From: a virus
Reading direction: 5' to 3' (one strand)
Virus record (IMG/VR): IMGVR_UViG_3300017971_000265
Coordinates: 1-64,000 of that record
Length of the DNA stretch: 64,000 nt
Both the position numbers and the translations under genes were made by a program. Positions 10,444-51,542 of the stretch are shown piece after piece. Below the pieces are notes generated by a model. It was not told where the DNA came from, searched no databases, and saw nothing but the letters and a program-made list of their open reading frames with translations. Position 1 is the first letter of the stretch, and each line of letters begins with the position of its first letter.

Positions 10444-11193
10444 ATGACACTATCTGAAGTCAATAGTATTTTGGAGACGGCTCTGTTCCGCCTATCCGAG
10501 GCTACGAAGCATGTGGAGGGCGACAAGTGGGAGTTGGATGGCAAACAGGGCATATGGCGTACTGTGAGGGGACGTCGCATGTTCTTTCCCGACGATGGGA
10601 GCGATCCCGTTGGAATGCCCAGCGCTATGAAACTTGCCCCAGCCAAGAAGCTCATGAAAACGGCCAAGGGGGGAGGAGAAGGTGCCGGGGGTGATCTTGG
10701 TACTGAGACTGCCCAGAAGGCCGTGTCAGGGGCTAGGGAAGAACTGGATGATGCAGTAGGTGGGTCTGGAGAATCGGCCATAGAAGAGCTAGAGAATGGC
10801 TCAGAGGAAGAGCAGGAGGCTCTGGATAAATTTGATAGGGGTGGCAGTTTGGGCGGGAAAGATAGGAAGACGCTGGCGAGGGGAGGGGTACAGGCTGCGC
10901 TAGGGCTTGGTTTAGGCGCGGCGATCATGGGAGCACTTCCTACCCTCTTAGCGTTTGCTACGATGTACCTGGTTGCTACATATGCAGTTGACAAAGTGGC
11001 GAAAAAACTGGGGGAAATTTTTGAGTCTAAGACGTCGAGACGAAAACGGCTCGCGACAGCTATTGAGGGGGGGATCAAAGAAACCTTGGCTGATATCTCT
11101 CGGGGTAGGGTTGATAAAAAAGCTCTAGCTAAGGCTCAGGCATTTGCTGCTCGCAAGGCCAAGGGGGGTAAGCGTGGAGTATCGTTACCTTGA
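10444..11193 (+). CDS. Putative internal head protein with class-B leader
   Basis: MTLSEVNSILETALFRLSE leader; GAGGAG RBS; hydrophobic segment near the C-terminus. Confidence 0.6.
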   Translation: MTLSEVNSILETALFRLSEATKHVEGDKWELDGKQGIWRTVRGRRMFFPDDGSDPVGMPSAMKLAPAKKLMKTAKGGGEGAGGDLGTETAQKAVSGAREELDDAVGGSGESAIEELENGSEEEQEALDKFDRGGSLGGKDRKTLARGGVQAALGLGLGAAIMGALPTLLAFATMYLVATYAVDKVAKKLGEIFESKTSRRKRLATAIEGGIKETLADISRGRVDKKALAKAQAFAARKAKGGKRGVSLP

Positions 11194-11330
11194 TATATAA
11201 AAACAATGAACGCATTTTTCGTATTTTGGAAAAAATACTGATGCATATTCTTTTTTGGATCTTGGTTTTGTTTGTTTCATGCCCTTTCTGGCTATCTCGA
11301 TCCTGTATGGAAGGCGCAGTTGAGAAAGAA

Positions 11331-11437
11331 ACGGCAAGAAAGGGCGAGGAATGAGACTAGTCTTAGTCGAGACTGGGGAGAAAAGGTTTGGTGAGAGATG
11401 GGAATTCCCAAGGGTCTTTCTCGTATGCGTGGAGATC
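11331..11437 (+). repeat. Dispersed element copy E7 (internally deleted leader plus one degenerate repeat)
   Basis: aggaatgagactagtcttagtcgagact...gatgggaattcccaagg gtctttctcgtatgcgtggag. Confidence 0.85.
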
Positions 11438-11440
11438 TAG

Positions 11441-12142
11441 ATGCGCCTGAGACGTCGTACATACCTGGCCGAGGCCACTTATGAGCGTGATAAGAGAATT
11501 CGTGATGTTGCTGAAAAATTCTATCGGCAATTGCTGTCATATCTAAAGAAATACCCCGATGAGTTAGTGCCGAGGCGAGATGGTGGCTTTTCTGTTCATG
11601 CCGCTGAGTTTTGGGACCATCCCTTGAGGAAGCATTTTGGTGTGGTTTTTATGCCTAAGCGGGGATCGGTGCAGGGGGGGATGGGTAGAGCTGGTAATAC
11701 AGACGTCTTGGTGCTTTATAATCTTATCGCACCGGGAAATCGAAAACATCTCTATACTCGAACCACAAGTCTCCACGATGTTGTCATTCATGAAATGGTT
11801 CACTTCCTAGATCCTGGCTCTAAGTATAAGGAGGGGACGGCAAAGAAGTATGATGCGGGACAACTCGATGCCAAGGCTTACTTTAATGATGCTGGGGAGT
11901 GGAATGCCTTTTGGCAAGAGGGTGCGGCGAAGTTGGAGCGCCTAATAAAGACTGATTTGGTCAAAAATCCTAAAGCAGTGACTCACTTTTTTGGTGATGG
12001 TTCTCTTCGAGCCCTACAGGATAGGGTCAATCGATTCTGGGACGTTATGTTTCTCCAAAGTATGAACAAGAAGACGAGGCGCAAATTTGATAAAAGGTTG
12101 GCTCAACTCTGGCTGAACCTGAAGAAGAAGGGGTTGCTATGA
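11441..12142 (+). CDS. Putative zincin-like metallopeptidase with class-A leader
   Basis: VIHEMVHFLD (HExxH) and downstream E; begins MRLRRRTYLAEA. Confidence 0.65.
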   Translation: MRLRRRTYLAEATYERDKRIRDVAEKFYRQLLSYLKKYPDELVPRRDGGFSVHAAEFWDHPLRKHFGVVFMPKRGSVQGGMGRAGNTDVLVLYNLIAPGNRKHLYTRTTSLHDVVIHEMVHFLDPGSKYKEGTAKKYDAGQLDAKAYFNDAGEWNAFWQEGAAKLERLIKTDLVKNPKAVTHFFGDGSLRALQDRVNRFWDVMFLQSMNKKTRRKFDKRLAQLWLNLKKKGLL

Positions 12143-12360
12143 CTCTGAGACGTCGCAGATATGTGGTTGAGACCGCGTTGATGGGGCTTACGAAATGGCA
12201 AACTGATCTAATAGCGGAGATCGGAATGTGGAGGGCACGGCTAAAGTTGTCGGACAGACAGGTTCAGGAATTGAGAAATATTGTGAACAAAACTAAGCCG
12301 AAGGCACGGGCAGAGAAAATGTTTAATGCTAAGATACGAGAGTTTTCTCAGGTTAGATGA
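12139..12360 (+). CDS. Small basic protein with class-A leader
   Basis: MTLRRRRYVVET; ATGA overlap. Confidence 0.7.
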   Translation: MTLRRRRYVVETALMGLTKWQTDLIAEIGMWRARLKLSDRQVQELRNIVNKTKPKARAEKMFNAKIREFSQVR

Positions 12361-17529: not shown

Positions 17530-20500
17530 ATGACTCTAGTTGTAGCACAAAATATCAGGGATCAACTGCTTGGAAGGGGCGAGGGGAAGTATAGCCTCGA
17601 TACTATAGAGGACTATTTTCTTGAGGCGATGAATCTGATGTTGGGAGATCAGGATTTTGTGTCGGTTGGAGAGAATGTGTGGCAGGTAGAGGGTGAGACT
17701 CCGATTACCGTAGAGGTATTCAGAGTATTTCACGAGGCTACCGGACAAGATATCATCAATAGGGTAGTAATTGTGGCGGGCGACAATAGGAAAGAGGAGC
17801 GATGGGCACTTCCCCCGGCGCGTATTACCGAGAAGTTTTATTTGGATCATCTCAATGCGATCAAGGATTATGTTTCGCAATGTGTGATGGGCAGCATCAT
17901 AGGGGAAGACGTCGAGCTGGATGAAGCCACTTATAAACCAGGCAGCGTGGCTCACTTTCTTATGGTGCTGACGAGCAAGGTAATCCAGGCGGATCAGCGT
18001 CAAGAGAAGGCGGACATTAAGCGTGGAATATCGGTGAATATTTATCGCCTTGGACATTTTTTAAAAGCTATAAAGGATGTTCAAAAGGGTGTTTCTCGGG
18101 TGATGGGTAGCACTGAAAAGAAAGACTTATTGGTTTTGAAACAGCGAATCAGCCGAGCTTTTACTCCGCAGTTTTCTCCTTCCAAGTTTGTACAAAAAGC
18201 AATCGATAAATACCTGGAGACAGGTGCGCTTCCGAAGATCTCAGGCAAGCGGGGAACGAAACCTCCGTGGGAAGAAGTGGATGTAGAACATGATGACGTC
18301 GAGTTGGATGAAGGTTTGGCCAAGGCACCTTGGGAGAAGGGTGGTCCTTCATATGAGAAGCTTGGATATACAGTATTGGCAAAGGTAAAGGGGGTTTTTA
18401 AGACAGACAATGAGCAGGCGGCAAAACGGGTGGCTCGTGAGAAAGAACTCTCCTATGGATTATCAATCTATGGTTCGTGGTATATAGGCAGGCCGTATCA
18501 GCTAAAAAAGCTTGGTGTGCCTAGATGGCAGATAAGAGAAGACGTTTCATCTCTAAGGAAAAGAGACGGCGTGTCTTTATTTGTTGGGGAAGGGATAGAT
18601 CTAGATGAGGCTATTCAGTGGAAAAAGAAGAAGCAACCAGTGACAGGACTCGATAAGTTTGTTGCGGGCGATGTGCGTAACAAGATGGTACTTTCTCCAG
18701 CACTTGCTGGGGATGGCCGGATGAAGGGGTGGAGGCTCCAGTTTCCTAGTGGTGTCGTTATAAATCATCATATTGATGTTTCCGATTCTCATGGGGCGAA
18801 GCGGTGGGCGGAGAAAATAATTGCTACACGCAGAGAAGACGTCGAGTTGGGTGATACTGGATCAGTGGGGGATATTCAGTTGATGCGAGACGAGCTTCTG
18901 GGAGATATCGATGAGGCGTGTAAGACACCGGGCATGAAGAAGCGTTCTAAGGGGAAGGGTCGTGGCTTGGCCAAGGGCAAGGGCAGGGGGCCGTTGGGTA
19001 TTCCCATAGGAGACAAGGTTGAGTTGGAAGACGTCGAGATGAATGAGGCAAAAGAGTTGTCGCATAGAGAGGTGGAAAAAATAATTACATCCTATGCTTC
19101 GGAGTTGTTACCTCTTTTTGCAGACAAATGGAGTAGGTGGCCACAGGGCCAAGCGGCCAGGGAGATTTACAACGTTTTGATGAAAAAACATAAATTTTAT
19201 TCTAGCTCAAAGATGAGTAAGGAAGCTGGTGATATAAAGAATGTTGCTAGGACAATTTTGAAGCGGGGTGGTATCAAGGAAGACGTCGGGTTGGACGAGG
19301 CCCGGCGTAGGAAGAAGATGACCCCGCGAGTCGATCCCGACATCAAGAAGATTCGGCCAGGCACGGTGCCCAAGGAGATCACGCTGTTTGGTGGCAAGAA
19401 GCACGCGGTGGACCCCAAGGCGTGGAAGCACTTCGTGAAGGAGGCCAAGAAGAACAAGAAGTGGGCCGAAGATCACGAGTACGCGAAGAACCCGGACGAG
19501 TGGCCTGCCAGCGGCATAAGCAAGGACATGCTCAAGGAACGGCTCAGAAAATCGGTCGAGCAACTGGCCCTCGATTCGTATCGGTATGCCTATATGCGGT
19601 CGCACGGCGTGGCCAAGGCGTGGGGCTCGAATATGGCTCTCGATCCTGCCGCCAAGAGGAATTGGGAGAAGATCACAGGCAAGAAGATCGAGATCCCGAT
19701 GGACCCGGCTGAGAAGAAGGTGCTGGACGCGCTACGGAAGAAGCGCAGGAACGAGGGTGTAGACGTCTCTGGGTTGCGCGATGACCTTCTGGAGTGCGGG
19801 TGCGAGGACGAACTGGACGAGGCCAAGGGCTTTACCAAGGGGCAGCGCGTATCGACCCCGCTGGGACCGGGTGACGTGGCGTATCAGCGAATGGGTCCTC
19901 CGAACTACAGTGAGCCCGTGTCCGTGTCGGTGGTGATCGACAAGAAGCGCAACAAGCCGGGCTATACCGGGACGATGTTCAAGGCGAAGGACGTGAAGCC
20001 GCTCAAGGAGGATGTCGAGCTGGACGAGGGCATGACCAAGCACACCGTTTTCAAGTTCGGATCGCTGGATGATTTGTGGGATGCTCACGATGCTCTGCGA
20101 GAGGCTGGCATGAATGTCAGCCGGTGGACTGGTGGCTGGAACACCGGGATGCGTGGTCCAATCGCCGCGTGGGTTCACCAGAAGTCGAAGACTCTGGCAT
20201 TCGGTTCTCCGTCCGTAGCGAGCGAGGCCAAGAAGATCCTGTCCGCGAAGAAGATCAAGATCGCCAAGGAGTTCAAGGAAGACGTCGAGTTGGATGAGGG
20301 CGATTCCAATTATGCGCGTTCTGAACTTGGCTATTTGAAAAAAGGTGAGATATGGAGCATACAGATCAGGGATGACAGTGGTGGTGCAACAAAATGGATG
20401 GATATAAACAAAGAGGTAATTTCTGCGTTGAAAGGGAAGGGTCGGGGGACTTACGCTGCGAAGGAGATGGGCCGTTTGAAAAAAGGTGAGATATGGAGCA

Positions 20501-22515
20501 TGCAGATCAGGGATGACAGTGGTGGTGCAACGAAATGGATGAACGTTAGTCCTGGGAGAATCAAGGCGCTTATTTCGATATGGAGCAAGCAGGGTCAACG
20601 AGAAGACGTCGAGTTGGACGAGGCCAATAGAGGTTTGAAGTCACAGGCAAATTCTATTCTAGTGACGGCTCAGGAGATGGAGACAGATCCAGATTATTTG
20701 AGCAGAAAGCCTGTGTTGGTGAAGCCTTATGCGGAGAACATGAGGGGGCATGTCAAGGAGTTGTTGGCTCGAAGCAGAGATCCATTGGTAGAAGATATTG
20801 CCAATTCAATTAGCCAGATTCGACAGAAAATGGAAAAGATGGCTAGGTATAGTGGGGGGCGCATTCCTGCCGAAAGGTTTTCGGAGTTTTTTATAAAATT
20901 AAAAGCGCAGGCCAAGGGGATACTCTCTGCGCTGAGAAGCAAGTCGGTGGCGGAAGGCATATTAGATGAGGCCAAGAAGACCTACGTGGTGAACGTTAAG
21001 AAGTATTTCCGGGGCATCACGGATCGTGGCGCGGTGGTCAAGGCTAGGAGTGAGAAGGAGGCTATTGCCAAGGCTGCGAAGCAGCTTGGTAAGAAACCGA
21101 GTTATCTGGAGATTGAGAATGTGTACGAAGATGTCGAGATGAATGAGGGCGAAACTCTTTTTATTTCTCCGACTAAGGAGGGGAACAAAAAGTGGCAGAT
21201 CCTTCACAGCACTAGCGGGATGGTCGGGACAGGTGGCCAGATCATCAAGATAGGGGGCAAGAAGGAAATCAAGGCGCTGGCGGCCAAGCTCGCGAAGAAA
21301 TGGAAGGCCGAAGTCAAGGAACTGGCTGGCGAAGACATCGAGATGGAGGCTGGGGACGAAATTCACGCTCTCAGGGACGAGCTGCTTGGGGGCGTAGATG
21401 AGGCGTGCAAGACACCGGGTATGAAGAAGCGTTCTAAGGGGAAGGGTCGTGGCTTGGCCAAGGGCAAGGGCAGGGGTCCGTTGGGTATTCCTGTTGATGA
21501 GTTGGAAGACATCGAGCTGGATGAGGGCCGCAAGGTCAAGCAGTTTGAGTTGGGTGACATTGTACGTCATACCAAGAAGTTCTTGCGAAACACGGGTCAA
21601 TACACTGGAGTACCCAGGAGTGGAAAGGTTGTTGGTTTTATTGATCTTGCTGGAAAGAAACTACCAAGGGTGAAATGGGATGATGGTAATGAGGCTCCCA
21701 TTCAGCCGGAAAATATCGAAATACATCCGAGGCACAGGAGGCGTATCGAAGACGTCGAGTTGGATGAGGCTAAGACCATTGCTCAGTTTGATCCAGTGAA
21801 GGTGGGGACAAAGGTCAAGTTGGTTCGTGGCCTGTTTGATATGGAGAAAGATCTTTTGCGTAAGAAAAATGTGCATTTCACTTTCGTTCGGTGGGCGAAG
21901 CCTCACGGGCATGCTGTGGTGAAGGATAGTAGTGGAGCGAATTGGCATGTGCATCCCGAGTCTCTTATTCTTGCCGAAGATGTCGAGTTGGATGAGGCTA
22001 CGCCAGCTGGTGGTGCGGTAGCACTGAAAGCAATAGCGGCACTAATGAAGGATTTCCAATACGCTCCCAAGGAATCGAACAAGTATTATGCGGCGTTTGT
22101 ATATCGGGGACGAGGGGGTAATCAATCTAGGATACTCGCGAAAGCTGAGAGTGCCTTGGCTGATGCTGGTTTTGACGAAGCGTCTTTTGGCACGTCGGGG
22201 GCTGGGCTTATGGCCGAGACGAGGAGGGGCAAGGTCTGGGTCAATATATATCTACCAGGACTAAGGACAGAAGACGTCGAACTGGATGAGGCTGGTGTAA
22301 CTGGTTATTCAATTATGCAGCTTTATAATATTTTGGCCCGGACGGTTAAGAAGGGAACTGTAAAAGAGATCGAGATGATTCATAACGAGTTAAAGGCCAA
22401 GGGGGCTGATATGCACCTGGTTGACCTAATTATCAGATCGGGAGGAAAGCTTCCTGGTCGTGTCAAAAAAATAGCATCTTTGAGCGAGATGAGAAATGAG
22501 CTGCTGGGCAGCTAG
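17530..22515 (+). CDS. Putative head polyprotein: ~18 modules separated by EDVELDE-type linkers
   Basis: About 17 (E)DVE(L/M)(D/N)E(A/G)-like linkers; lies between terminase and portal; AAGGAG RBS. Confidence 0.75.
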   Translation: MTLVVAQNIRDQLLGRGEGKYSLDTIEDYFLEAMNLMLGDQDFVSVGENVWQVEGETPITVEVFRVFHEATGQDIINRVVIVAGDNRKEERWALPPARITEKFYLDHLNAIKDYVSQCVMGSIIGEDVELDEATYKPGSVAHFLMVLTSKVIQADQRQEKADIKRGISVNIYRLGHFLKAIKDVQKGVSRVMGSTEKKDLLVLKQRISRAFTPQFSPSKFVQKAIDKYLETGALPKISGKRGTKPPWEEVDVEHDDVELDEGLAKAPWEKGGPSYEKLGYTVLAKVKGVFKTDNEQAAKRVAREKELSYGLSIYGSWYIGRPYQLKKLGVPRWQIREDVSSLRKRDGVSLFVGEGIDLDEAIQWKKKKQPVTGLDKFVAGDVRNKMVLSPALAGDGRMKGWRLQFPSGVVINHHIDVSDSHGAKRWAEKIIATRREDVELGDTGSVGDIQLMRDELLGDIDEACKTPGMKKRSKGKGRGLAKGKGRGPLGIPIGDKVELEDVEMNEAKELSHREVEKIITSYASELLPLFADKWSRWPQGQAAREIYNVLMKKHKFYSSSKMSKEAGDIKNVARTILKRGGIKEDVGLDEARRRKKMTPRVDPDIKKIRPGTVPKEITLFGGKKHAVDPKAWKHFVKEAKKNKKWAEDHEYAKNPDEWPASGISKDMLKERLRKSVEQLALDSYRYAYMRSHGVAKAWGSNMALDPAAKRNWEKITGKKIEIPMDPAEKKVLDALRKKRRNEGVDVSGLRDDLLECGCEDELDEAKGFTKGQRVSTPLGPGDVAYQRMGPPNYSEPVSVSVVIDKKRNKPGYTGTMFKAKDVKPLKEDVELDEGMTKHTVFKFGSLDDLWDAHDALREAGMNVSRWTGGWNTGMRGPIAAWVHQKSKTLAFGSPSVASEAKKILSAKKIKIAKEFKEDVELDEGDSNYARSELGYLKKGEIWSIQIRDDSGGATKWMDINKEVISALKGKGRGTYAAKEMGRLKKGEIWSMQIRDDSGGATKWMNVSPGRIKALISIWSKQGQREDVELDEANRGLKSQANSILVTAQEMETDPDYLSRKPVLVKPYAENMRGHVKELLARSRDPLVEDIANSISQIRQKMEKMARYSGGRIPAERFSEFFIKLKAQAKGILSALRSKSVAEGILDEAKKTYVVNVKKYFRGITDRGAVVKARSEKEAIAKAAKQLGKKPSYLEIENVYEDVEMNEGETLFISPTKEGNKKWQILHSTSGMVGTGGQIIKIGGKKEIKALAAKLAKKWKAEVKELAGEDIEMEAGDEIHALRDELLGGVDEACKTPGMKKRSKGKGRGLAKGKGRGPLGIPVDELEDIELDEGRKVKQFELGDIVRHTKKFLRNTGQYTGVPRSGKVVGFIDLAGKKLPRVKWDDGNEAPIQPENIEIHPRHRRRIEDVELDEAKTIAQFDPVKVGTKVKLVRGLFDMEKDLLRKKNVHFTFVRWAKPHGHAVVKDSSGANWHVHPESLILAEDVELDEATPAGGAVALKAIAALMKDFQYAPKESNKYYAAFVYRGRGGNQSRILAKAESALADAGFDEASFGTSGAGLMAETRRGKVWVNIYLPGLRTEDVELDEAGVTGYSIMQLYNILARTVKKGTVKEIEMIHNELKAKGADMHLVDLIIRSGGKLPGRVKKIASLSEMRNELLGS

Positions 22516-36645: not shown

Positions 36646-37776
36646 ATGAGAGCGATACAGGAATGGCAACTTTGGATGCACCCATATCCTACTCTGATTA
36701 AAAACAAGAGTAGACGTCTGGACCCATCAAAATTCCCCTTTGGGAGGATTTTTCGGGATGGGAAGGAGCTGGTGAGGCTATCTGACTTGTTTGAGGCTCG
36801 GAAGCAGACTCCTCCCCAGTTGAAACGATGTGTTCGGGCCATTGTAGACAAAGAGATGGAGGGCGAGGATCGGACCCCAGAGGCGATGCGTGCGGCCATT
36901 TCGAAGGGTTTTGCTATTTGTACCTCACAGCTCCAGAAGAGTGGCTATTTGAAGGTAGGTAGTCAGAAGCCCACCAAGGCCGGGAAACAGGCGGGGCGCT
37001 CCAAGGCTGCTCAGAAGGCTCACATGGACAAGGTGGCCGATTATGAGCGGATGCTTGGTGTGGCTCGTGGAGAAGGCTCAGAGGATACTGGGGGCTCTCT
37101 GAGCGAGGCTGAGGGGGGGTTTAGGTTGAATGTGGCCCGTGTCCCGCTCGGCAAGGCCAGATCTTATGCAGAAGGAGTGTTGCGGCAGGCAGGCGAAGAT
37201 ATTGAGAGAGAATTGCCTGATTTTGATAAGAATTATGTTCGTTTGCAGAAGATGACCAGACAGGCATTAGACGTCCCAAGGATCGAGATGCCCGTTATTG
37301 AGCCCAAGGACATGAAGCGATTTGATAAAAAGCTCAAAAAGGGCCACCTCGATATTTTTGCTCCCTATGCGGAGGGTCATTTAGAAGCTCCGAAGCATTT
37401 GACCAAACAGACAGGCTCAGAATGGATCAAGCTAGGTGTGAGGGATGGCAAGAAAAAGGACGATGTAGTGGTTGGTCGCTGGACCTCGGTCCCCGCTAAA
37501 AAGCTGATTCCGACTCAATCGCAGATCTGGCTAGAGAAACTGGTGAGAAACATCGCAAAGTTTGGCAGGCCGAGGGCGGGTTCTCCAGTTCTCAATACGA
37601 CAATTATCGTTTCTAGGGAGGGTTATATCTTGGATGGCCATCACCGATATGGGCAGGTGATGTTGGCGAATCCAGACTTGAAATTGAAAGCGCTCTATAT
37701 TCCATTGCCCATTGAATTGTTACTCAAGATTGGACGCACCTATGGCAACGCCATTGGTAATGTTCAGAAGGGGTAA
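36646..37776 (+). CDS. Two-module protein with C-terminal ParB/Srx-like domain (likely true start GTG 36772)
   Basis: LIPTQSQI...IIVSREGYILDGHHRY; AAGGAG before GTG gives MRLSDLFEA. Confidence 0.7.
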   Translation: MRAIQEWQLWMHPYPTLIKNKSRRLDPSKFPFGRIFRDGKELVRLSDLFEARKQTPPQLKRCVRAIVDKEMEGEDRTPEAMRAAISKGFAICTSQLQKSGYLKVGSQKPTKAGKQAGRSKAAQKAHMDKVADYERMLGVARGEGSEDTGGSLSEAEGGFRLNVARVPLGKARSYAEGVLRQAGEDIERELPDFDKNYVRLQKMTRQALDVPRIEMPVIEPKDMKRFDKKLKKGHLDIFAPYAEGHLEAPKHLTKQTGSEWIKLGVRDGKKKDDVVVGRWTSVPAKKLIPTQSQIWLEKLVRNIAKFGRPRAGSPVLNTTIIVSREGYILDGHHRYGQVMLANPDLKLKALYIPLPIELLLKIGRTYGNAIGNVQKG

Positions 37777-37780: not shown

Positions 37781-38455
37781 ATGTCTCTTTTCTATATGAA
37801 CCAATTACTTTCTGAGGCAGTTGATACGGTTTCTAGGGACGTCTTAACAGAGGTGGCTATTGGCCAGACAACGGAAACGGCAAATCTACGAATCCACCGT
37901 TACTCTAGTGCGATCCGTGTTACCGATCTCACAAATGCGGGAAAACGAGGAAAAAAGGTGGATGAATTCGCTCTTTACGATATTGACTCTTTGCGAGATC
38001 CCAGGATGAAAGATTTGGTAGAGATGTTTGCTGCCATGCTTAGCCGTGGGCGGATCAAAACTTATAAACAAGCTTTGACGGCGGCTAGGGGATTAGTTGA
38101 TGAGTCGGAACGAATTGCGAAAGCTTCTGATCAGTTTCTTTCCGTGCCCAAGATAGAGACGGGTCAATACAAGGGCGTTCGAGTAGCACCGGCCGGTTTT
38201 AAACCTATTGATTTTAAAAATCCGAATATTGCGCTGTATGCGGACAATGAGAGGTTCCGAATCACAGATATGAGGGATAAGTACAATGAACCTACCCTAA
38301 TAGCTCCGCTTCGTGGCAAGGTTGCATCGGTTAAAAAATTCTATGAGTGGGCTCGCAACAACATGGGAAAGTTGAACCGCATGACTTTTAGAGACGTCAT
38401 GAAGGAGATGAAACGTGCCGGAATCGATTATCACTACTATTGCGCGGTAGACTGA
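37781..38455 (+). CDS. Putative internal head protein, class-B leader
   Basis: MSLFYMNQLLSEA...VLTEV. Confidence 0.65.
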   Translation: MSLFYMNQLLSEAVDTVSRDVLTEVAIGQTTETANLRIHRYSSAIRVTDLTNAGKRGKKVDEFALYDIDSLRDPRMKDLVEMFAAMLSRGRIKTYKQALTAARGLVDESERIAKASDQFLSVPKIETGQYKGVRVAPAGFKPIDFKNPNIALYADNERFRITDMRDKYNEPTLIAPLRGKVASVKKFYEWARNNMGKLNRMTFRDVMKEMKRAGIDYHYYCAVD

Positions 38456-38462: not shown

Positions 38463-39413
38463 ATGCTTGGAAAATCCATAGAATTTTTGGAAGATATCAT
38501 CTCGATATTGGGGGAACAACCCGTGGGAGATGAAAACGATGTGGATGCATTTGGCATGGATGCACATACTAGGAGAAGGTTACGGGTTGATCGTTTATTG
38601 CAACCTAGAGGGAAGAAAAAGCCGCGTAAGCCGATGCGTACCAAAATGCCGCATTCGTTGGCCAGAATTCCCCGGCTGGGGAATGAGGAGATTGTGAATT
38701 CATCACTGAGGAGACGAGGTTATCTAGCAGAGAGCGTCCGGGTTCTTAAGAAAGCTCCTCCCAAGACCGCTGTGGCAGATGTGTACGGGTTAAGATTCTC
38801 GTCGTGGGACGGGAAGCTGGCATTGGTGACGACATCTGCATTAAGTGCTTTCAGCTCAGGCGAGCATATCAGTCAATGGTTTAATCCAGAGACATTAGCG
38901 CAGCGATATGTTGTACGGTTTGCTGTAGACAGCCGAGGGAAACCTATACCGGTGACGAATAGTAGTTGGATTGGGGCGCAGCCTTACCTTGCTGATGCGC
39001 ATCTTCCTTACGAGAAGAACACATTTAAGCTTGGTAGCCGTGGATATGGCATGAGGGCCGAAGTTGAAGGATCTTTTTCAAAACCTCAAGAGTTTTGGGT
39101 AAAGAAATCGTTCAAGAATCTGGATGGTGCACAGACCAACGTAGTGGAACACTATTTCCGCAAGCGCGGTTTTATTGACGTCTCTGATTTCAAACTCACG
39201 GTGCGGGATTGGCGCATTATGCTTGGCATGGGTTTTGACGAGATTCAGGAGAAACTGCATTACGAGAAGGCGAAGGAGGCTGATTATTTGGTTACGAGGA
39301 TACTCGGACATTCTACTATCGATGATAGTTTGATGAACAGAGTTTGGAAGGGCATCAAGGGCGTATACGCCTTGACACGGCAGGGTAAGATAAAATTCGC
39401 TGTAGAAAGGTGA
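38463..39413 (+). CDS. Putative internal head protein with internal class-A motif
   Basis: SSLRRRGYLAES near residue 80-92. Confidence 0.65.
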   Translation: MLGKSIEFLEDIISILGEQPVGDENDVDAFGMDAHTRRRLRVDRLLQPRGKKKPRKPMRTKMPHSLARIPRLGNEEIVNSSLRRRGYLAESVRVLKKAPPKTAVADVYGLRFSSWDGKLALVTTSALSAFSSGEHISQWFNPETLAQRYVVRFAVDSRGKPIPVTNSSWIGAQPYLADAHLPYEKNTFKLGSRGYGMRAEVEGSFSKPQEFWVKKSFKNLDGAQTNVVEHYFRKRGFIDVSDFKLTVRDWRIMLGMGFDEIQEKLHYEKAKEADYLVTRILGHSTIDDSLMNRVWKGIKGVYALTRQGKIKFAVER

Positions 39414-39760
39414 ATCAAAAGATGGCGCACAAAAAGCTGAGACATAGGCAATATCTGGGAGAGGGCACGACACCGTGGATATGGGCTTTTTCAAAACGTC
39501 CAGATGTTGAGTTTGCAATACAGATAGTTTCGGCTGATTCATTTCAGGTGCAAATAGGTATGGGGGGTGAGTGGTGGAACGGACGTCTAAGGCTTGGACG
39601 GAACATTCTCTATCATCGCAAGGGGAAAGTTGATCCTGCCTACCGACCCGTAACAGCAGAGGTAAGTCATAGGAAAGACGGTATATATTTCTCAATTTCC
39701 GGTGGCTTCTATGGGGATCAGACTGCGAAGTTTACGATGAGGCTAGTTGCGAATACGTGA
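39410..39760 (+). CDS. Putative internal head protein, class-A leader
   Basis: KKLRHRQYLGEG. Confidence 0.65.
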   Translation: MNQKMAHKKLRHRQYLGEGTTPWIWAFSKRPDVEFAIQIVSADSFQVQIGMGGEWWNGRLRLGRNILYHRKGKVDPAYRPVTAEVSHRKDGIYFSISGGFYGDQTAKFTMRLVANT

Positions 39761-40173
39761 TGGTTTCTTCTCTTACCAGTACTGTTGATCTTCTCCAAGA
39801 TGCACGCAAGTTCATGACGCCTGGACGCGAGGGGCGTGGCAAGCATGATCCGGTTGGATATGTACTTGGTAAATTTTTTAACTCTACGCCAGAGTTCGAT
39901 AAGTCGTTAGTTGAGAGACAGCGACGGAAGAATGGTTGGACGCTGCGAGGAGCATGGCCAAGTACTGGTCGGAAAATATTCGATTGGGAATTTGATGTTT
40001 GGGGCGAGCGCGGGGGTGAAGTAGTTGTGAAATTTGCGATGTGGAGTAATGAAGGATTGATTGATGGTCTGAGTTTTAGAACCAACGTAGGGACTGTGGA
40101 TAGGCTTATTCCTAAGTTTTTGAGAAAATACTTCTATCCCATGAAGGCTATGGCAAAGGAGAGAGCGGCATGA
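39757..40173 (+). CDS. Hypothetical protein
   Basis: Overlapping operon ORF. Confidence 0.6.
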   Translation: MMVSSLTSTVDLLQDARKFMTPGREGRGKHDPVGYVLGKFFNSTPEFDKSLVERQRRKNGWTLRGAWPSTGRKIFDWEFDVWGERGGEVVVKFAMWSNEGLIDGLSFRTNVGTVDRLIPKFLRKYFYPMKAMAKERAA

Positions 40174-40565
40174 ATCTTAGATGTCGCGGATATTTAGTGG
40201 AAAAGACGCTAAATGTTAAGCAGGCAATTCCCGATCAAGATTTAAGCGATAGGGAATTGGTACAAAGGATAAAAAGCTATAGGGTCGATAAGACTCGGGG
40301 GTGGGGTTTGTTTGTCAAGGCAAGAAATCTTCGACCGGGAATAGATGCGAAAGAATTTTATAAGATTTTTGATTCTGTAAATCCTGATCCTCATCACACG
40401 ATAGTTTCGGTTAAGTTTGAGCCGACACATATATCGAAAGATACTCCAGGATTATCCATAATGGTTACCTCAAGAACGCCGCATTTGGTACGTCATATAA
40501 TGAGCTATGGTGGAACTGGTGGCACGCCTGTACGTGAGTTTGATCGGCAATGGAGAGCAATATGA
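40170..40565 (+). CDS. Putative internal head protein, class-A leader
   Basis: MNLRCRGYLVEK. Confidence 0.7.
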   Translation: MNLRCRGYLVEKTLNVKQAIPDQDLSDRELVQRIKSYRVDKTRGWGLFVKARNLRPGIDAKEFYKIFDSVNPDPHHTIVSVKFEPTHISKDTPGLSIMVTSRTPHLVRHIMSYGGTGGTPVREFDRQWRAI

Positions 40566-40795
40566 ATCTTAGACGTCGTGGATATTTACAGGAGTCGGTT
40601 GGGATTGTGAAAAAATCTCAGATTGATAGGAACAAATCTTATACTGTTTGGGAGAAGCATCCCTATATGGATACGTGGATGATCGATAGATCTTACTATG
40701 GGATTTATTTCTATGGAGAAGGCGAGGCTTATTTGAAATCAAAGAAACATATTGTGGTTCCCAGGGGAGTGGACCCAAATAGGGAGGACAAGTGA
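40562..40795 (+). CDS. Putative internal head protein, class-A leader
   Basis: MNLRRRGYLQES. Confidence 0.7.
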   Translation: MNLRRRGYLQESVGIVKKSQIDRNKSYTVWEKHPYMDTWMIDRSYYGIYFYGEGEAYLKSKKHIVVPRGVDPNREDK

Positions 40796-40796: not shown

Positions 40797-41285
40797 ATGA
40801 GTCTTCGAGATGTAAATGAATTGCTTCGTGGCAGTGTTGCGCAGATCAGGGACATAGAAGAGGCAGCGCCAGCGCCCGGTGTGGTAGACTTGGAGAATCC
40901 GGTCTATCATATACGTCAGAAGGTGGCTAAGATCAGTGTCCCGGTCTCACCAACAACTAGTATTGCTGCTGGACAGACAGGGGCGAAGTTGTTGAAACAG
41001 AGACTGACAGGTTGGACAAAGGCTGATCATAAAAAGGCTGTGGTTAAGTTGGAAAAAATGGCAAAGAGGGCCAAGGCTGACTATGCGCGTGCGCTCGATA
41101 GGGCGGCGCAGGAAACGTGGGGGCGAAAATGGAAGCCGACTGATTACAAGATCTCTTGCGTTGGTTCGGATGAATTTTCCGAGTCGATCAAGAAAAAACT
41201 CCGAGTGTTGTGTCGTAAGATGACAATTATTGGAGATGCGCTTGCGTCTCATAGGTATTTGGCAAAATATCTAAGGACAAAATGA
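40797..41285 (+). CDS. Putative internal head protein, class-B leader
   Basis: MSLRDVNELLRGSVAQIRDIEEA; GGAGG RBS. Confidence 0.7.
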   Translation: MSLRDVNELLRGSVAQIRDIEEAAPAPGVVDLENPVYHIRQKVAKISVPVSPTTSIAAGQTGAKLLKQRLTGWTKADHKKAVVKLEKMAKRAKADYARALDRAAQETWGRKWKPTDYKISCVGSDEFSESIKKKLRVLCRKMTIIGDALASHRYLAKYLRTK

Positions 41286-41775: not shown

Positions 41776-42048
41776 ATGAATAGTTTGAGAAATCGCGGGT
41801 ATTTGGAAGAGGGGCAGTATCAAGTGTCTATTGGTCCTGACGATGACCTGGAAGATAAGACTGGTGAGCTGATGAAAATGATCAGAGCAGCTATTCACGG
41901 TGGTATCAGGAGGGTATTGGCTCAGAATGGTATGTCTCCTTCTGTGATCGGGAAGGTGGATAGATACCTTGATGCCAAAGAAGGTAAATTCATGGATGAT
42001 TTGACTGATATTATGTTGAAAATGCGAGTTCCACATAGGCTTGGGTAA
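41776..42048 (+). CDS. Putative internal head protein, class-A leader
   Basis: MNSLRNRGYLEEG; AGGAG RBS. Confidence 0.7.
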   Translation: MNSLRNRGYLEEGQYQVSIGPDDDLEDKTGELMKMIRAAIHGGIRRVLAQNGMSPSVIGKVDRYLDAKEGKFMDDLTDIMLKMRVPHRLG

Positions 42049-42095: not shown

Positions 42096-42371
42096 ATGTC
42101 GCTAAGAAATAGGTCTTATAGATATATCGATGAAGCCAAGATGCGGAAGTATGTTGGTGTTAGGGCCAAGGGTGTTGCATCTCTGCTTTTTTCTACTGCA
42201 AACGATGCCAAGGATGCTGCAGCTAAAATCAATCGTTTCAAAAGGAGTTATGATGCATCTTATAGGAAGTCTGGTGACGTATGGAGAGTAGAGGTTGAGG
42301 GCATATCTATTGCCGAGCTTGTTTCATTGATTGACAAGCTGGATCTCAAACCGTTGACGCAATATCACTAG
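42096..42371 (+). CDS. Putative internal head protein, class-A leader
   Basis: MSLRNRSYRYIDEA; AGGAG RBS. Confidence 0.7.
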   Translation: MSLRNRSYRYIDEAKMRKYVGVRAKGVASLLFSTANDAKDAAAKINRFKRSYDASYRKSGDVWRVEVEGISIAELVSLIDKLDLKPLTQYH

Positions 42372-43315: not shown

Positions 43316-43597
43316 ATGGACATAATAGAAGCAAATGCTTTGCTAGATAAAGCAGTGGAAAGGCTCGCAGAGAAGATTTGGTCAGGAGAGGTTAAGACCA
43401 AGTGGCATCCTCCCGAGGGTTTTTTCGAGCAGAGTGCGAGCAAGATTGCTAGTGGTCTAAAATCAGCCTCGAAAGATCTGAAGCAAGCCATGGCCCGGTT
43501 GAATTTCTATATAAACAGAGCTGGGGAAAATCTCTCAGATGCAGATGTTAGACGTCTGGAGATGGCCAAGAAAAAACTCCAAAAGGCTTATGTATAG
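43316..43597 (+). CDS. DUF3175-like protein with class-B leader
   Basis: AMARLNFYINRAGENL...LE.AK motif; MDIIEANALLDKAVERLAE leader. Confidence 0.7.
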   Translation: MDIIEANALLDKAVERLAEKIWSGEVKTKWHPPEGFFEQSASKIASGLKSASKDLKQAMARLNFYINRAGENLSDADVRRLEMAKKKLQKAYV

Positions 43598-43605: not shown

Positions 43606-44217
43606 ATGAATCTACACAAAGTAAACGAATTGTTGGCTGAGACGATTTATGAGATCGGGGCTGGTGGTTTGAGGCCGATCAAAACGAGTGGTATTTTGAT
43701 TCAACCAAATGTGACTTACCACATGGGTGCATCTAGTTCTCCCCATAAAATCTTTGTGACCAAGGTTGATGATAGGATGATTTATTATCGATCTTATCCG
43801 TTTTATCGAGGACGAGAGGCCCGAATTGATCGAGGGATAGGAACGGATCTGATTCTTCAAGGCGTCAATACCTTCATGAAAAGTGGGTATGGTAAGTACC
43901 CTTGGGGAAAAGCGACGATCAGAAAATACAAATCGTTACTTGCTGGCAAAAAGGTTAAGCCTGAAGATCTCAAGGATTACCAGAGAATAAAAGTCACGGT
44001 GGGGCCGGGCAAGGGGTATGAGGGCAAAGATTTGTGGCGTGAGGCTGAGTCGCATGGCTATGGTGTTGGGGGTAGGCGAGTCGAGGGAATGACGGATGGA
44101 TTTCCGTGGATGAAAAATGATAATTCTAGTGTGTACGAGATTGAGATGGATAAGAAGAGTTTGCCGGGTCTAAAGAAAGATAAGCGTTTCAAAATTCTGA
44201 GCATAAAAGAAATGTAG
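43606..44217 (+). CDS. Putative internal head protein, class-B leader
   Basis: MNLHKVNELLAETIYE. Confidence 0.7.
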   Translation: MNLHKVNELLAETIYEIGAGGLRPIKTSGILIQPNVTYHMGASSSPHKIFVTKVDDRMIYYRSYPFYRGREARIDRGIGTDLILQGVNTFMKSGYGKYPWGKATIRKYKSLLAGKKVKPEDLKDYQRIKVTVGPGKGYEGKDLWREAESHGYGVGGRRVEGMTDGFPWMKNDNSSVYEIEMDKKSLPGLKKDKRFKILSIKEM

Positions 44218-44229: not shown

Positions 44230-44583
44230 GTGAAGCTTCGGAAAATAAATGAGTTATTGGGTGATACGGTTGAGAGCTTGACCGAATCGTTTCCTGCTTC
44301 ATCTCCTGGTGAGGTAGCAATTCGCAAACTCATAAGGGCTGTTCAGACAAAGACTCGTCTCCGATTTATGTATCGATCTGGTAAGATTGTTACGCTGAGC
44401 GGTGCAGTTGTGGCAACACTTGCTGCAACAGAGGACGGAAGATTCAATATAGAGGTTATCGAGTACGATACAAATTATCGATATGGATACAAGCCTAGAG
44501 GCAAAAAAACCTACAAGGAATTGTCGAAAGAAGCTGCGGTGAAAGTGCTTGCTAAGGCGTTAGAGGCGCATCCAGGAGTATAG
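44230..44583 (+). CDS. Putative internal head protein, class-B leader
   Basis: MKLRKINELLGDTVESLTES; GGAGG RBS. Confidence 0.7.
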   Translation: MKLRKINELLGDTVESLTESFPASSPGEVAIRKLIRAVQTKTRLRFMYRSGKIVTLSGAVVATLAATEDGRFNIEVIEYDTNYRYGYKPRGKKTYKELSKEAAVKVLAKALEAHPGV

Positions 44584-44594
44584 GAGTTGTCGTC

Positions 44595-45011
44595 ATGAGT
44601 GTTGAGTGGGTCAATGGAATGCTGAATGAGGCGATTGCAGAACTGGCTGAGGCGAGAAACAGGACTCTTAAGAAGGATTTGAAATTCAAGAGTGGCGATA
44701 TTATTCCTAGAGGCACCCCGGTTGAGGTGGAGTTTTTGGGAGAAAGAGATCCCAGGGGATATAGTGTCGCGCTTTTGAAGGCGAATTGGAGAGGGTCAAA
44801 TGGGCGAGATTATCAGAGGGAGCCTGTTCGAATATCGATTGCCAAGCTACACAAATATGTGAGTGGTTTTGGTAAGCCACCAGGAATGGCCAAGCTGGAA
44901 CGCATGGCCTCGGATGGAGTAGCAACGACTCCGACAGGAAAGCGCGTGGAGCCTGATGGATATGGACCAGATGGATCTCCTAGTTGGCTCATGGCGTTGG
45001 GATTTGTCTAA
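44595..45011 (+). CDS. Putative internal head protein, class-B leader
   Basis: MSVEWVNGMLNEAIAELAEA. Confidence 0.7.
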   Translation: MSVEWVNGMLNEAIAELAEARNRTLKKDLKFKSGDIIPRGTPVEVEFLGERDPRGYSVALLKANWRGSNGRDYQREPVRISIAKLHKYVSGFGKPPGMAKLERMASDGVATTPTGKRVEPDGYGPDGSPSWLMALGFV

Positions 45012-45021
45012 GAGGAGGGAG

Positions 45022-45833: not shown

Positions 45834-45859
45834 GGATAAGACATATTGGGATTAAACAA

Positions 45860-50098: not shown

Positions 50099-50126
50099 TT
50101 TGTCGAGAACGTAAGGAGGATAGGTT

Positions 50127-50636
50127 ATGACGGTAAGGTCAGTAGCACAAGACGAGATTCAGAGTTTTCGCTTTCGAGTCTTTGAGATAGACGGTGGAGC
50201 AGGGGTGTTTGACAATGAAAATCCAGTTGCTGGATTTAATACGGTCACTACTCCAAACCTCACCTTTGAAACAGCGGAGCATCGAACGGGATCTCGCAAA
50301 TATGCGCGGAAGTTTCTTGGACCCCCCACGTGGGAAGCTGGAACGATGACGCGAGGCATCTTGAGAGGTGATACGACGTTTTACGACTGGGCGATTGACA
50401 AATATTTGGGTCGCAAGCCGTTTCGTACCGATCTGGAGATTCGAGTCTATGATCAGGAGGAGGACGGATCAGATGTGGCGAACGACGAGGCTGTTCGATC
50501 TGAGATTTGGAGACAGTGTATTCCATCGAGTGTCAAGCCGATGGGAGACCTCGATGCGTCGGCTACAGACGTCAACATGCAGGAAATTACGGTTGAGGTT
50601 GAAGAAGTAGAGTTGACAACCAAGCCTTCTGCCTAA
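50127..50636 (+). CDS. Tail tube protein (gp19-like)
   Basis: FRFRV, AGF..V..P, TMTRG...FYDW, LDA....V..QEIT. Confidence 0.85.
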   Translation: MTVRSVAQDEIQSFRFRVFEIDGGAGVFDNENPVAGFNTVTTPNLTFETAEHRTGSRKYARKFLGPPTWEAGTMTRGILRGDTTFYDWAIDKYLGRKPFRTDLEIRVYDQEEDGSDVANDEAVRSEIWRQCIPSSVKPMGDLDASATDVNMQEITVEVEEVELTTKPSA

Positions 50637-51344
50637 ATGTCTCGCAGTATTTTTAGCGATGAACTTCGAGTTCACCAATTCCATCTTATAGATGTAGATC
50701 CATCTTTTTCTTTCCCTCCCTTTGTATTAGTTCCCAATGTAGGTTTTTCTTCAATCACCATACCTGAGATTTCTATCGAGACAGAGGAGATCCAGGAGGG
50801 AACTAGTGATTTTGTTCATCACGTGTTAAAAAAAGCTTCTACCAATACTATTACTCTTTCGAGAGGATCGACTCCTTTTAATAGTGATTTTTGGCGATGG
50901 ACCATGGCGTGTGTCAAGGGGACTAGCGCTTCAGGCAAAGAAAGCGTGGCCGGATTTTTAACTCAGGCGTCAACGCTTGGTTTGTTTGGCGATATCAAAA
51001 TTCCTGGCAAGCGCAGGAATATGATCTTGTTACATCTGACTGGGCTTTCTGCAGAGGGTCTTTTAGAGGCTATGGATTCAGCGAGGGGGCTGGATATGGC
51101 GAGGGGATTAGCGCTCCTCCCCTATGCTGGCTTGTCCGAAGCTTCAGGGTTGCAGTCGTCACTGACACAGGGGCTTTTAGATCTGGGGATTACTTCTATA
51201 CCAGGTAAAGCCTATATGCTGTTTGGATGCTTGCCGACCCGGTATAAACCAGGTAGTGATTTTGATGCAGATACAACAGCCGTAAGTATTGAGGAGTTAG
51301 ATTTGGCATATTCTCATTTTGAGCAATTTGGAGTGGGGGCATAG
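50637..51344 (+). CDS. Second tail-tube-like protein
   Basis: GFSSITIPE, EG, ITLSRG...FWRW, FDA....VSIEELDL. Confidence 0.75.
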   Translation: MSRSIFSDELRVHQFHLIDVDPSFSFPPFVLVPNVGFSSITIPEISIETEEIQEGTSDFVHHVLKKASTNTITLSRGSTPFNSDFWRWTMACVKGTSASGKESVAGFLTQASTLGLFGDIKIPGKRRNMILLHLTGLSAEGLLEAMDSARGLDMARGLALLPYAGLSEASGLQSSLTQGLLDLGITSIPGKAYMLFGCLPTRYKPGSDFDADTTAVSIEELDLAYSHFEQFGVGA

Positions 51345-51542
51345 ATGGGACTACGGAAAAGAGCATATCTCGCAGAAATCACCACATCGGGCGCTGTGCC
51401 CCCTCTTGTTAAGCCCTTTGCCGTCTACCGAAGAGCTTTTCCAACGACGCTGAGCGGCATTGTGGACAAGCTGACGCGATCTAAGAAACGGTTGGCCAAG
51501 AAATTCTCCAAAATGGGGCCTCCTCTTCCTCCCAAGGTTTGA
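51345..51542 (+). CDS. Small basic protein, class-A leader
   Basis: MGLRKRAYLAEI. Confidence 0.65.
   Translation: MGLRKRAYLAEITTSGAVPPLVKPFAVYRRAFPTTLSGIVDKLTRSKKRLAKKFSKMGPPLPPKV

What the first reader, a model, noticed from the sequence alone, without database searches (positions are those of the whole stretch)
10444..51542. Two families of shared N-terminal leaders on otherwise unrelated small proteins: candidate capsid-targeting signals
Seen: class A, LR(R/N/K/H)RxY(L/V)xE, begins genes at 11441, 12139, 39410, 40170, 40562, 41776, 42096 and 51345, and occurs internally in 38463, 22526 and 35227. Class B, x(V/I)NxLL...(L/I)xE, begins 10444, 37781, 40797, 43316, 43606, 44230 and 44595. Sequences diverge right after the Glu. 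The major capsid protein has LKRRFLTE-A near residue 68. Established: T4 internal proteins carry a ~10-aa capsid targeting sequence removed by gp21 after (I/L)-x-E, and IPI* is an injected anti-restriction factor. Inference: 15-20 cargo proteins are packaged, matured and injected, using two address codes different from the T4 sequence.
Basis: partly seen in the sequence, partly recalled or inferred. Interest (0 to 1): 0.8.

Follow-up and report, generated by a model that had tools for sequence, protein, structure and literature searches.

The report
Head-loading tags on phage cargo proteins
An uncultured phage with a T4-type head puts one of two short N-terminal tags, each ending in the cut site of its head protease, on about 15 unrelated small basic proteins, most likely to load them into the capsid as T4 loads its internal proteins; nothing has been measured.

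Summary
Class A (M-x-L-R-x-R-x-Y-L/V-x-E) starts 8 genes and class B (a roughly 19-residue helix with a V/I-N-x-L-L core, ending in L/I-x-E) starts 7. Both are conserved as protein rather than DNA, are far above chance, and recur in related uncultured phages.

The contig (77.9 kb, probably partial) has a T4-type head module: gp20-like portal, gp21-like S77 protease and gp23-like capsid protein. The capsid protein's F-L-T-E|A aligns exactly with T4 gp23's known cut site E65|A66, and class A resembles it.

The strongest evidence is comparative:
- Tagged genes turn over completely between relatives, while the neighbouring structural genes stay 45-76% identical.
- Orthologues swap tag type but keep the junction right after the Glu.
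- The same cargo domain is a free tagged gene in one phage and fused behind an internal tag in another.
- Fourteen of the 15 cargo proteins have pI above 9.

The best reading is T4-CTS-like propeptides: dock in the prohead core, then get cut. Cleavage, packaging and especially injection remain inferred. "Different from T4" is only half right, because class A keeps T4's aromatic-aliphatic-x-Glu ending and class B resembles T4 gp24's propeptide.

The scan has already reported similar shared leaders in other uncultured T4-like phages. This is a new variant of a known kind.

The parts
11441..11473 (+). Class A leader MRLRRRTYLAE on a 233-aa protein whose family has an invariant HExxHxxDP motif
12139..12171 (+). 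Class A leader MTLRRRRYVVE on a 73-aa protein
39422..39463 (+).
40170..40202 (+). Class A leader MNLRCRGYLVE
40562..40594 (+). Class A leader MNLRRRGYLQE
41776..41811 (+). Class A leader MNSLRNRGYLEE; the orthologue in L003 has a different 12-residue leader that also ends in LEE
42096..42134 (+). Class A variant MSLRNRSYRYIDE
51345..51377 (+). Class A leader MGLRKRAYLAE on a conserved 65-aa, very basic protein lying in the tail module
10444..10500 (+). Class B leader (19 residues, ends LSE) on a 249-aa protein with a hydrophobic segment; the weakest class B member
37781..37852 (+). Class B leader (24 residues, ends LTE). AlphaFold2 predicts a helix at residues 3-22, then a linker. Twelve or more near orthologues keep (L/V/I/C)-x-E directly before the conserved AIGQT
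40797..40862 (+). Class B leader (ends IEE)
43316..43372 (+). Class B leader (ends LAE); orthologue L022_16014 keeps the class B leader and the junction
43606..43653 (+). Class B leader (candidate cut sites LAE at 12 and IYE at 16)
44230..44286 (+). Class B leader (ends LTE)
44595..44651 (+). Class B leader (ends LAE)
38706..38732 (+). Internal class A motif LRRRGYLAE in g38463. The domain downstream of it is a free gene with an N-terminal class A leader in relative L017
23111..23137 (+). Internal class A motif LRRRNFVSE in g22526; the L017 homologue keeps LRRRRF but has Asp where the Glu would be
35776..35799 (+). C-terminal LRRRSYSL of g35227 with no cut site after it; the L004 homologue ends in LRSRRY
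36646..36663 (+). Minimal leader MRAIQE ahead of the conserved WQLWMHPYP. Orthologues carry MLFE, MRLEE or class A MSLRQRGHLEE at the same junction
32139..32162 (+). Capsid protein maturation site LKRRFLTE|A (residues 62-69), aligned with T4 gp23 FLTE65|A66
31956..33440 (+). gp23-type major capsid protein
29165..31927 (+). gp21-type (Peptidase_S77) prohead protease fused to a roughly 330-residue acidic helical tail that looks like a scaffold
29462..30625 (+). Intein (residues 100-487) inserted directly after the catalytic His of the protease; absent from the 512-527-aa homologues in relatives
24111..26858 (+). gp20-type portal protein containing an intein
17530..22515 (+). 1661-aa polyprotein: at least 12 E-D-V-E-L-D-E|A/G linkers (L-x-E sites) separating mostly basic modules. 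A third context for the same cut motif

Best explanation
The two leaders are removable head-loading propeptides of the T4 capsid-targeting-sequence type. A tagged protein is made late and docks by its leader in the prohead core, which here would be built from the acidic tail of the protease protein and the charged proteins g27003 and g27918. It is enclosed when the capsid shell forms. The gp21-like serine protease then cuts it free after the Glu of (L/V/I)-x-E, and the mature, mostly basic protein stays with the DNA.

Class A has two parts. The Arg-rich L-R-x-R-x-Y half probably does the docking, since it also occurs where no cut can follow. The Y-L-x-E half is the cut site and copies the capsid protein's own maturation site. 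Class B is an amphipathic helix that ends in the same cut motif.

Because the tag works at the N-terminus or inside a chain, cargo domains can be fused, split or exchanged freely. This explains the rapid turnover of tagged genes and the EDVELDE polyprotein. Delivery of the cargo into the host with the DNA is a further, untested inference.
For: Shown by sequence and comparison:
1. T4-type head module in T4 gene order. The intein-less protease homologue is 29% identical to T4 gp21 over 165 residues (E=9e-16), with GELDHP and GVSSRG conserved.
2. The capsid protein's FLTE69|A sits in the same alignment columns as T4 gp23's FLTE65|A. Relatives have h-K-R-(R/K)-x-L-x-E at that site, and more distant relatives have TRQRGYLQE or TRQKGYLQE, which is class A exactly.
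3. Leaders are far above chance and conserved at protein level. They recur in relatives L002-L005, L017, L020 and L022.
4. Nine tagged genes have no homologue in relatives, whereas the interleaved structural genes are 45-76% identical.
5. Leader swaps keep the junction fixed. In the g11441 family, six homologues have class A and eight have MRxLLERLxxLxE, with E11 and A12 conserved in at least 90%. The g36646 family has four different leaders, each ending in E directly before the conserved W. The g51345 and g37781 families behave the same way.
6. Fusion and fission occur exactly at the tags.
7. In the AlphaFold2 models, class A residues 1-10 have pLDDT below 50 and the fold starts after E11. 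Class B forms a helix at residues 3-22, followed by a linker that carries the cut site.
8. Fourteen of 15 cargo proteins have pI above 9, against 21 of 72 other proteins (p=1e-5). The T4 internal proteins are likewise basic.

Established knowledge: gp21 cuts after L/I-x-E; the 10-residue CTS of IPIII is sufficient for packaging; T-even relatives carry diverse basic proteins with CTS-like leaders (PMC9026906, PMC3012670, PMC5694885).
Against: There are no protein-level data. Nothing shows that any tagged protein is in virions, is cut, or is ejected.

L-x-E alone is common by chance, so the exact cut positions in class B, which offers 2-3 candidate sites per leader, are uncertain.

g51345 is a conserved class A protein in the tail module between the tube genes and the tape-measure region, an odd place for a head-internal protein.

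In the more distant relative L030 the capsid protein has the class-A-like site, but the small proteins carry other leaders. Class A on cargo does not simply track the capsid protein's site.

Docking to the scaffold is inferred from T4 and from charge; no interaction was modelled. The cargo functions are unknown, because two confident models found no fold match.
Confidence: 0.7

Rival explanations
1. The motifs are protease recognition sites only. The tagged proteins reach the prohead by other means, or through their basic bodies, and the extended motif reflects a long substrate groove (P9-P1) in this protease rather than an address.
For: Class A mirrors the capsid protein's own cut site. The polyprotein linkers use the same L-x-E with a quite different, acidic context. 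Minimal leaders such as MLFE or MRAIQE can replace class A on the g36646 family.
Against: LRxRxY/F is conserved where no cut can follow: at the C-termini of g35227 and L004_2182, and as LRRRRFRVD in L017_670. Removing a 10-residue N-terminal peptide has no obvious purpose without a prior function for it. In T4 the targeting and processing residues of the CTS are separable (PMC9026906).
Confidence: 0.15
2. LRxRxY is a docking motif for some other partner, such as the portal, the terminase, DNA or a tail component. It serves the assembly of structural proteins, with no proteolysis and no delivery of cargo.
For: There are uncleavable copies at C-termini and inside proteins. A conserved class A protein sits in the tail module.
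Against: The invariant Glu and the fixed junction behind it across leader swaps are not needed for plain docking. Most tagged genes are non-conserved accessories rather than structural core genes.
Confidence: 0.07
3. The shared sequence is a nucleic-acid feature, either a translation-initiation region or a recombination cassette, and the peptide is a by-product.
For: Upstream ribosome-site regions are also similar among some tagged genes in L002 and in the window. AGA-CGT-C Arg codons contribute to the over-represented GACGTC.
Against: The Leu, Arg and Glu codons vary synonymously. The motif also occurs inside and at the end of proteins. The amino-acid pattern holds across relatives whose DNA is not detectably alike.
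Confidence: 0.03
4. Class A is a twin-arginine (Tat) or other export signal.
For: RRxYL looks superficially like the Tat motif RRxFL.
Against: No hydrophobic core follows. The highest 12-residue Kyte-Doolittle mean after the motif is 1.15 or less, and the sequence is charged and diverse. AlphaFold2 places the folded domain directly after the Glu.
Confidence: 0.01

Closest known systems
Phage T4 capsid targeting sequence on internal proteins IPI, IPII, IPIII and Alt, removed by the gp21 protease
   Same: Short N-terminal leader of 10-19 residues on otherwise unrelated, basic, non-conserved proteins. It ends in aromatic-aliphatic-x-Glu, and a homologous S77 protease is present. In T-even relatives the leader is the only conserved part of a variable gene set (PMC3012670, PMC9026906; T4 sequences read).
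   Different: The N-terminal half is Arg-rich (L-R-x-R) rather than M-K-T-Y-Q. Two well-defined classes coexist. There are about 15 tagged genes plus a 13-module polyprotein, against 4 in T4. The tags also work internally, and copies that cannot be cut occur at C-termini.
T4 gp23 and gp24 maturation propeptides
   Same: The capsid protein's cut site is positionally homologous. T4 gp24's 10-residue propeptide MAKINELLRE|S resembles the class B core V/I-N-E-L-L and is the best class B profile hit among 177 T4 ORFs.
   Different: The gp24 match scores only 5.3 bits and may be convergence. No gp24 paralogue was seen on this contig. Class B extends to about 19 residues with a second cut motif.
Propeptides of head and ejection proteins in giant phages phiKZ, 201phi2-1 and SPN3US
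   Same: A gp21-related protease cuts many head and ejection proteins after Glu. Propeptides are thought to guide assembly (PMC5694885, PMC10052503).
   Different: Their motif has a small residue at P3 (S/A/G-x-E) and most of their propeptides are 100-250 residues long. Here P3 is L/V/I and the leaders are 6-24 residues.
Phage P1 DarB N-terminal packaging signal
   Same: An N-terminal signal of 30 residues or fewer is sufficient to load an anti-restriction protein or a reporter into the head (PMC9024508).
   Different: Unrelated head type and sequence. It is a single protein, not a tag shared across many genes.

Membership tests
T4-type CTS / gp21-processed propeptide system | The phage encodes a gp21 (Peptidase_S77) prohead protease with its catalytic residues | tested here: met
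   Pfam PF03420 and PHROG 207. PDB 5JBL matches in two pieces on either side of an intein. The intein-less homologue is 29% identical to T4 gp21 with the His and Ser motifs conserved. The third catalytic residue was not checked.
T4-type CTS / gp21-processed propeptide system | The leader ends in (L/I)-x-E within about 10-20 residues of the N-terminus | tested here: met
   All 15 leaders qualify. V is also accepted at P3. 42096 has I-D-E.
T4-type CTS / gp21-processed propeptide system | The same leader sits on otherwise unrelated, poorly conserved proteins | tested here: met
   No BLASTP similarity among members. No Pfam or PHROG families. Nine members have no homologue in relatives.
T4-type CTS / gp21-processed propeptide system | The cargo consists of small basic proteins | tested here: met
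   Fourteen of 15 have pI above 9, Mann-Whitney p=1e-5 against the rest of the proteome.
T4-type CTS / gp21-processed propeptide system | Sequence similarity to the T4 CTS MKTYQEFIAE | tested here: inconclusive
   Only P4 aromatic, P3 aliphatic and P1 Glu are shared with class A. Class B resembles the gp24 propeptide at 5.3 bits.
T4-type CTS / gp21-processed propeptide system | The leader is physically removed in virions | not testable with these tools
   Needs virion mass spectrometry or N-terminal sequencing. Supported only indirectly by the fixed junctions.
T4-type CTS / gp21-processed propeptide system | The leader is sufficient to package a foreign protein, and the cargo is ejected into the host | not testable with these tools
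   No cultured member of the clade and no known host.
phiKZ/SPN3US-type propeptides | Cleavage motif with a small residue at P3 (S/A/G-x-E) | tested here: not met
   P3 is L, V or I in all class A, class B, capsid-protein and polyprotein sites.
Tat signal peptide | Twin-Arg motif followed by a hydrophobic core and a signal-peptidase site | tested here: not met
   No hydrophobic stretch follows the motif.

The most novel reading that the evidence does not exclude
The phage uses a modular two-part code. A stand-alone Arg-rich docking peptide (L-R-x-R-x-Y/F) binds a conserved prohead partner and can sit at the N-terminus, inside a chain or at the C-terminus. A separate L-x-E cut signal decides whether the attached domain is released. 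Together with the class B helix and the EDVELDE polyprotein, this would let the lineage fuse, split and exchange cargo genes at will, pack 30 or more different mature polypeptides, and make packaged proteomes of uncultured phages readable from sequence.
Probability: 0.35. Interest if true: 0.65.

Novelty: new variant of a known kind. Interest (0 to 1): 0.5.

Why it matters
If the reading holds, the packaged and possibly injected protein set of a whole clade of uncultured phages can be read directly from genome sequence. That set is a natural place to look for anti-defence and host-takeover factors. One example here is the tagged HExxH protein family, whose fold has no solved relative.

The natural leader swaps and the fusions and fissions amount to evolutionary experiments. 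They show that the tags are portable and where the cut falls.

The well-defined 9-residue class A motif, which copies the capsid protein's own maturation site, also gives a concrete handle on how a gp21-type protease or the prohead core recognises its clients. This remains unclear even for T4.

The principle itself is textbook T4 biology, and this scan has met similar shared leaders in several other uncultured T4-like lineages.

Tried and rejected
- Near-identity DNA search of 39000-46000 against isolated phages: no match. The best isolated-phage capsid proteins are only about 33% identical, so no studied relative exists.
- The g36646 relative L001 turned out to lie in a non-structural context. 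It showed only that the protein's C-terminal domain is mobile.
Relatives came from IMG/VR instead.
- Scan of GTDB genomes with the capsid protein: no relative, so no host clue. The cluster look-up gave no names.
- Pfam and PHROG on 20 tagged or neighbouring proteins: nothing usable.
- Fold searches with two confident models (g11441 pLDDT 89.8, g37781 pLDDT 94.5): no Foldseek match at E of 0.001 or better, and the best VIA-align Z was 4.7, which is within noise. Cargo functions stay unknown.
- The class-B-like LREVNRILED at residues 77-86 of the protease protein aligns to the gp21 fold itself and is not a leader.
- The Tat-signal idea was rejected, as was the DNA-repeat idea.
- Amphipathicity of class B is only moderate per leader: all 7 lie above the shuffle mean, with individual fractions of 0.007-0.2.
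Full report
**What the window is.** The window is the first 64 kb of a single 77,932-bp contig. All genes lie on the + strand and GC skew is strongly positive. It encodes a contractile-tailed phage with a T4-type head module in T4 gene order (T4 order read):
- a gp20-type portal with an intein (24111-26858);
- two charged proteins of unknown family (27003-27905 and 27918-29165);
- a 920-aa protein carrying a Peptidase_S77 (gp21) domain (29165-31927);
- a gp23-type major capsid protein (31956-33440).

Sheath, tube, tape-measure and baseplate genes follow from 47954. No isolated phage is close. DNA search finds nothing, and the best isolated-phage capsid proteins are about 33% identical. Metagenomes hold a sizeable uncultured clade whose capsid proteins are 52-82% identical, on contigs of up to about 180 kb. 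This contig is therefore probably a partial genome.

**The protease.** The S77 match is split. Residues 45-119 and 512-586 match T4 gp21 (PDB 5JBL). The piece between them starts with Cys directly after GELDHP and ends in Gly-Asn before Ser, so it is an intein of about 388 residues. Homologues in relatives lack it and are 512-527 aa long. One of these aligns with T4 gp21 at 29% identity over 165 residues (E=9e-16), with the His motif and GVSSRG conserved. The last roughly 330 residues are acidic and helical and occupy the position of T4 gp22. I read this as a protease-scaffold fusion; that reading is an inference.

**Checking the observation.** Every listed start carries the stated leader. The class A pattern occurs 9 times in the 87 proteins, against 0.045 expected from shuffles. 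Seven hits begin at residues 3-6, and none lies in the other five frames. Class B members score 23-28 bits against their profile, with the next protein at 2.3. In leave-one-out tests each member still outranks every non-member, although 10444 and 37781 do so only narrowly. Codon usage at the conserved residues varies synonymously. BLASTP finds no similarity between members beyond the leader, and Pfam and PHROGs find nothing.

The internal class A copies in g22526 and g38463 are real. In g35227 the clear copy is the C-terminus, which ends LRRRSYSL.

**Link to the protease.** The capsid protein's LKRRFLTE|A (residues 62-69) falls in the same alignment columns as T4 gp23's FLTE65|A66, the known gp21 cut site (PMC9026906). 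Across 60 or so close homologues the site reads h-K-R-(R/K)-x-L-x-E followed by Ser or Ala. In the 55%-identity branch it reads TRQRGYLQE or TRQKGYLQE, which is class A itself. Class A is therefore a copy of the capsid protein's maturation site placed at the front of small proteins.

Its last four positions (Y-L-x-E) match T4's F-(I/L)-x-E in both IPII/IPIII (MKTYQEFIAE) and gp23. The core of class B (V/I-N-E-L-L) resembles the 10-residue propeptide of T4 gp24 (MAKINELLRE|S). That propeptide is the top class B profile hit among 177 T4 ORFs, but at only 5.3 bits, so it is a lead and not proof.

A 1661-aa protein (17530-22515) offers a third context for the same cut motif. It has at least 12 EDVELDE|A/G linkers separating mostly basic modules. 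An earlier first-reader note pointed me to it.

**Comparative evidence.** This carries most of the weight.
- *Tags recur in relatives.* Relatives with sheath proteins 62-71% identical and capsid proteins 71-78% identical carry the same tags on other proteins, for example MTLRRRGYLSE, MRLRKRGYLVE, MNIRQTNEVLGETVEELSE. Over 268 kb, all 30 class A hits lie on the coding strand and most lie within 5 residues of a start codon.
- *Tagged genes turn over.* Nine tagged genes of the window have no homologue in these relatives, while the untagged genes between them are 45-76% identical. This matches the T-even pattern, where only the targeting sequence is conserved among diverse internal proteins (PMC3012670, PMC9026906).
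- *Leader swaps keep the junction.* In the HExxH family of g11441, six homologues carry class A and eight more distant ones carry MRxLLERLxxLxE. Glu11 and Ala12 are at least 90% conserved. The g36646 family begins MRAIQE, MRLEE, MLFE or MSLRQRGHLEE, always directly before the conserved WQLWMHPYP. The g51345 family and more than a dozen g37781 orthologues behave alike.
- *Fusion and fission at the tag.* The domain behind the internal LRRRGYLAE of g38463 is a separate gene starting MNLRRRRYLTE in L017. The C-terminal domain of g36646 is a separate gene with a class-B-like leader in L022. L002 and L004 fuse the N-part of g38463 to the g39757 body through a helical L-x-E segment.

**Structure and composition.** AlphaFold2 gives confident models for two cargo families. 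In g11441 (pLDDT 89.8), residues 1-10 are below 50 and the fold starts just after Glu11. In g37781 (pLDDT 94.5), residues 3-22 form a lone helix of lower confidence, followed by a coil that holds the predicted cut at Glu24. Neither domain has a recognisable solved relative.

Fourteen of the 15 cargo proteins have pI above 9, against 21 of 72 other proteins (p=1e-5). This fits DNA-associated internal proteins such as the T4 IPs, which have pI 8.9-9.5.

**Docking versus cutting.** LRxRxY/F is also conserved where no cut can follow. It forms the C-terminus of g35227 and of its L004 homologue (LRSRRY). In the L017 homologue of g22526 it reads LRRRRFRVD, with Asp in place of Glu. In T4, Asp at the last CTS position blocks processing but not targeting, and the targeting and processing residues are separable (PMC9026906). 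I therefore propose that the Arg-rich half docks, probably on the acidic core proteins, and that L-x-E cuts. This split is an inference.

**Rivals.** Cut site only, with no address function (0.15); docking for another partner without proteolysis (0.07); a nucleic-acid-level element (0.03); a Tat signal (0.01). The evidence for and against each is given in the rival entries.

**Open points.**
- The conserved class A protein g51345 lies in the tail module.
- The more distant relative L030 has the class-A-like capsid site but uses other shared leaders on its small proteins, RFNTLLEAI...LDE and KxLMEEMxxxAGLxE. Lineages appear to change their tags.
- No data exist on virion content, cleavage or injection.

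**Comparison and novelty.** The closest known system is the T4 CTS with gp21 processing. Every defining feature that can be read from sequence is met. Sequence similarity to the T4 CTS itself is only partial, and the physical features cannot be tested here. The giant-phage propeptide type (S/A/G-x-E) is not met.

The scan's own notes list similar shared leaders in at least eight other uncultured T4-like genomes. I did not check those notes and do not count them as support. I found no paper describing this clade or these motifs.

Verdict: a real, well-supported new variant of a known kind. It is of moderate interest for four reasons: the capsid-site mimicry, the two coexisting tag classes, the internal and C-terminal use of the tag, and the natural swap experiments.

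Noticed in passing
window 14402-17518, 24111-26858, 29165-31927: Three head and packaging genes each carry an intein: the 1038-aa putative large terminase (Intein_splicing plus LAGLIDADG, residues 150-473), the portal (about residues 270-618), and the protease (residues 100-487, directly after the catalytic His). Relatives have intein-less protease genes, and L017 has a 1465-aa portal.
   Followed up: partly
window 17530-22515: A 1661-aa polyprotein with at least 12 EDVELDE|A/G linkers and mostly basic modules. The first module is acidic (pI 4.4). The gene is absent from relative L017, where the terminase-like gene is followed directly by the g22526 homologue. Its internal (R)(D/N)ELLG motifs before some linkers and at the C-terminus resemble the class B core.
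   Followed up: partly
window 36646-37776 (residues 150-376): The C-terminal domain of g36646 is mobile. It is fused here and in L020, free with its own leader in L022, missing from L004, L017 and L022 orthologues of the N-domain, and present in Aeromonas phage 65 and in an unrelated 157-kb IMG/VR contig in a non-structural context (L001).
   Followed up: partly
window 11441-12142: The g11441 family (15 metagenomic members) has an invariant HExxHxxDP motif and a conserved EWNAFWQEG segment. The AlphaFold2 model is confident (pLDDT 89.8) but has no convincing solved relative. It is a candidate packaged zinc hydrolase of unknown target.
   Followed up: partly
window 51345-51542: A 65-aa, very basic, Pro-rich protein with a class A leader is conserved in all five relatives at the same place, between the two tube-like genes and the tape-measure region. 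In L003 the leader is replaced by MEDHERFDE.
   Followed up: partly
whole contig: GACGTC occurs 100 times, against 15.7 expected from base composition and 64.6 from a Markov estimate. Half of the copies are in-frame Asp-Val codons, including the polyprotein linkers. Others come from Arg-Arg codons in class A leaders and from spacers just before start codons.
   Followed up: partly
window 2505, 3287, 4509: Three ORFs begin with nearly the same MLLGDVEPGSPAL sequence. Earlier notes of this scan read these repeats as guide-RNA scaffolds of a phage TnpB-type nuclease, not as protein leaders. They are unrelated to classes A and B.
   Followed up: no
L030:6559-8700 and 10601-11400: A more distant relative (capsid protein about 55% identical) has its own repeated leaders on small genes: (D/E)(R/K)FNxLLE(A/M)(I/F)...LDE on four genes and KxLMEEMxxxAGL(S/T)E on two. 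Each lineage seems to have its own tag set.
   Followed up: no
window 10444-11193: The class B protein g10444 has a long Gly/Ala-rich hydrophobic stretch (about residues 160-195) that could span a membrane. Part of its mature N-terminus recurs fused to a g37781-type domain in L020_11666.
   Followed up: no
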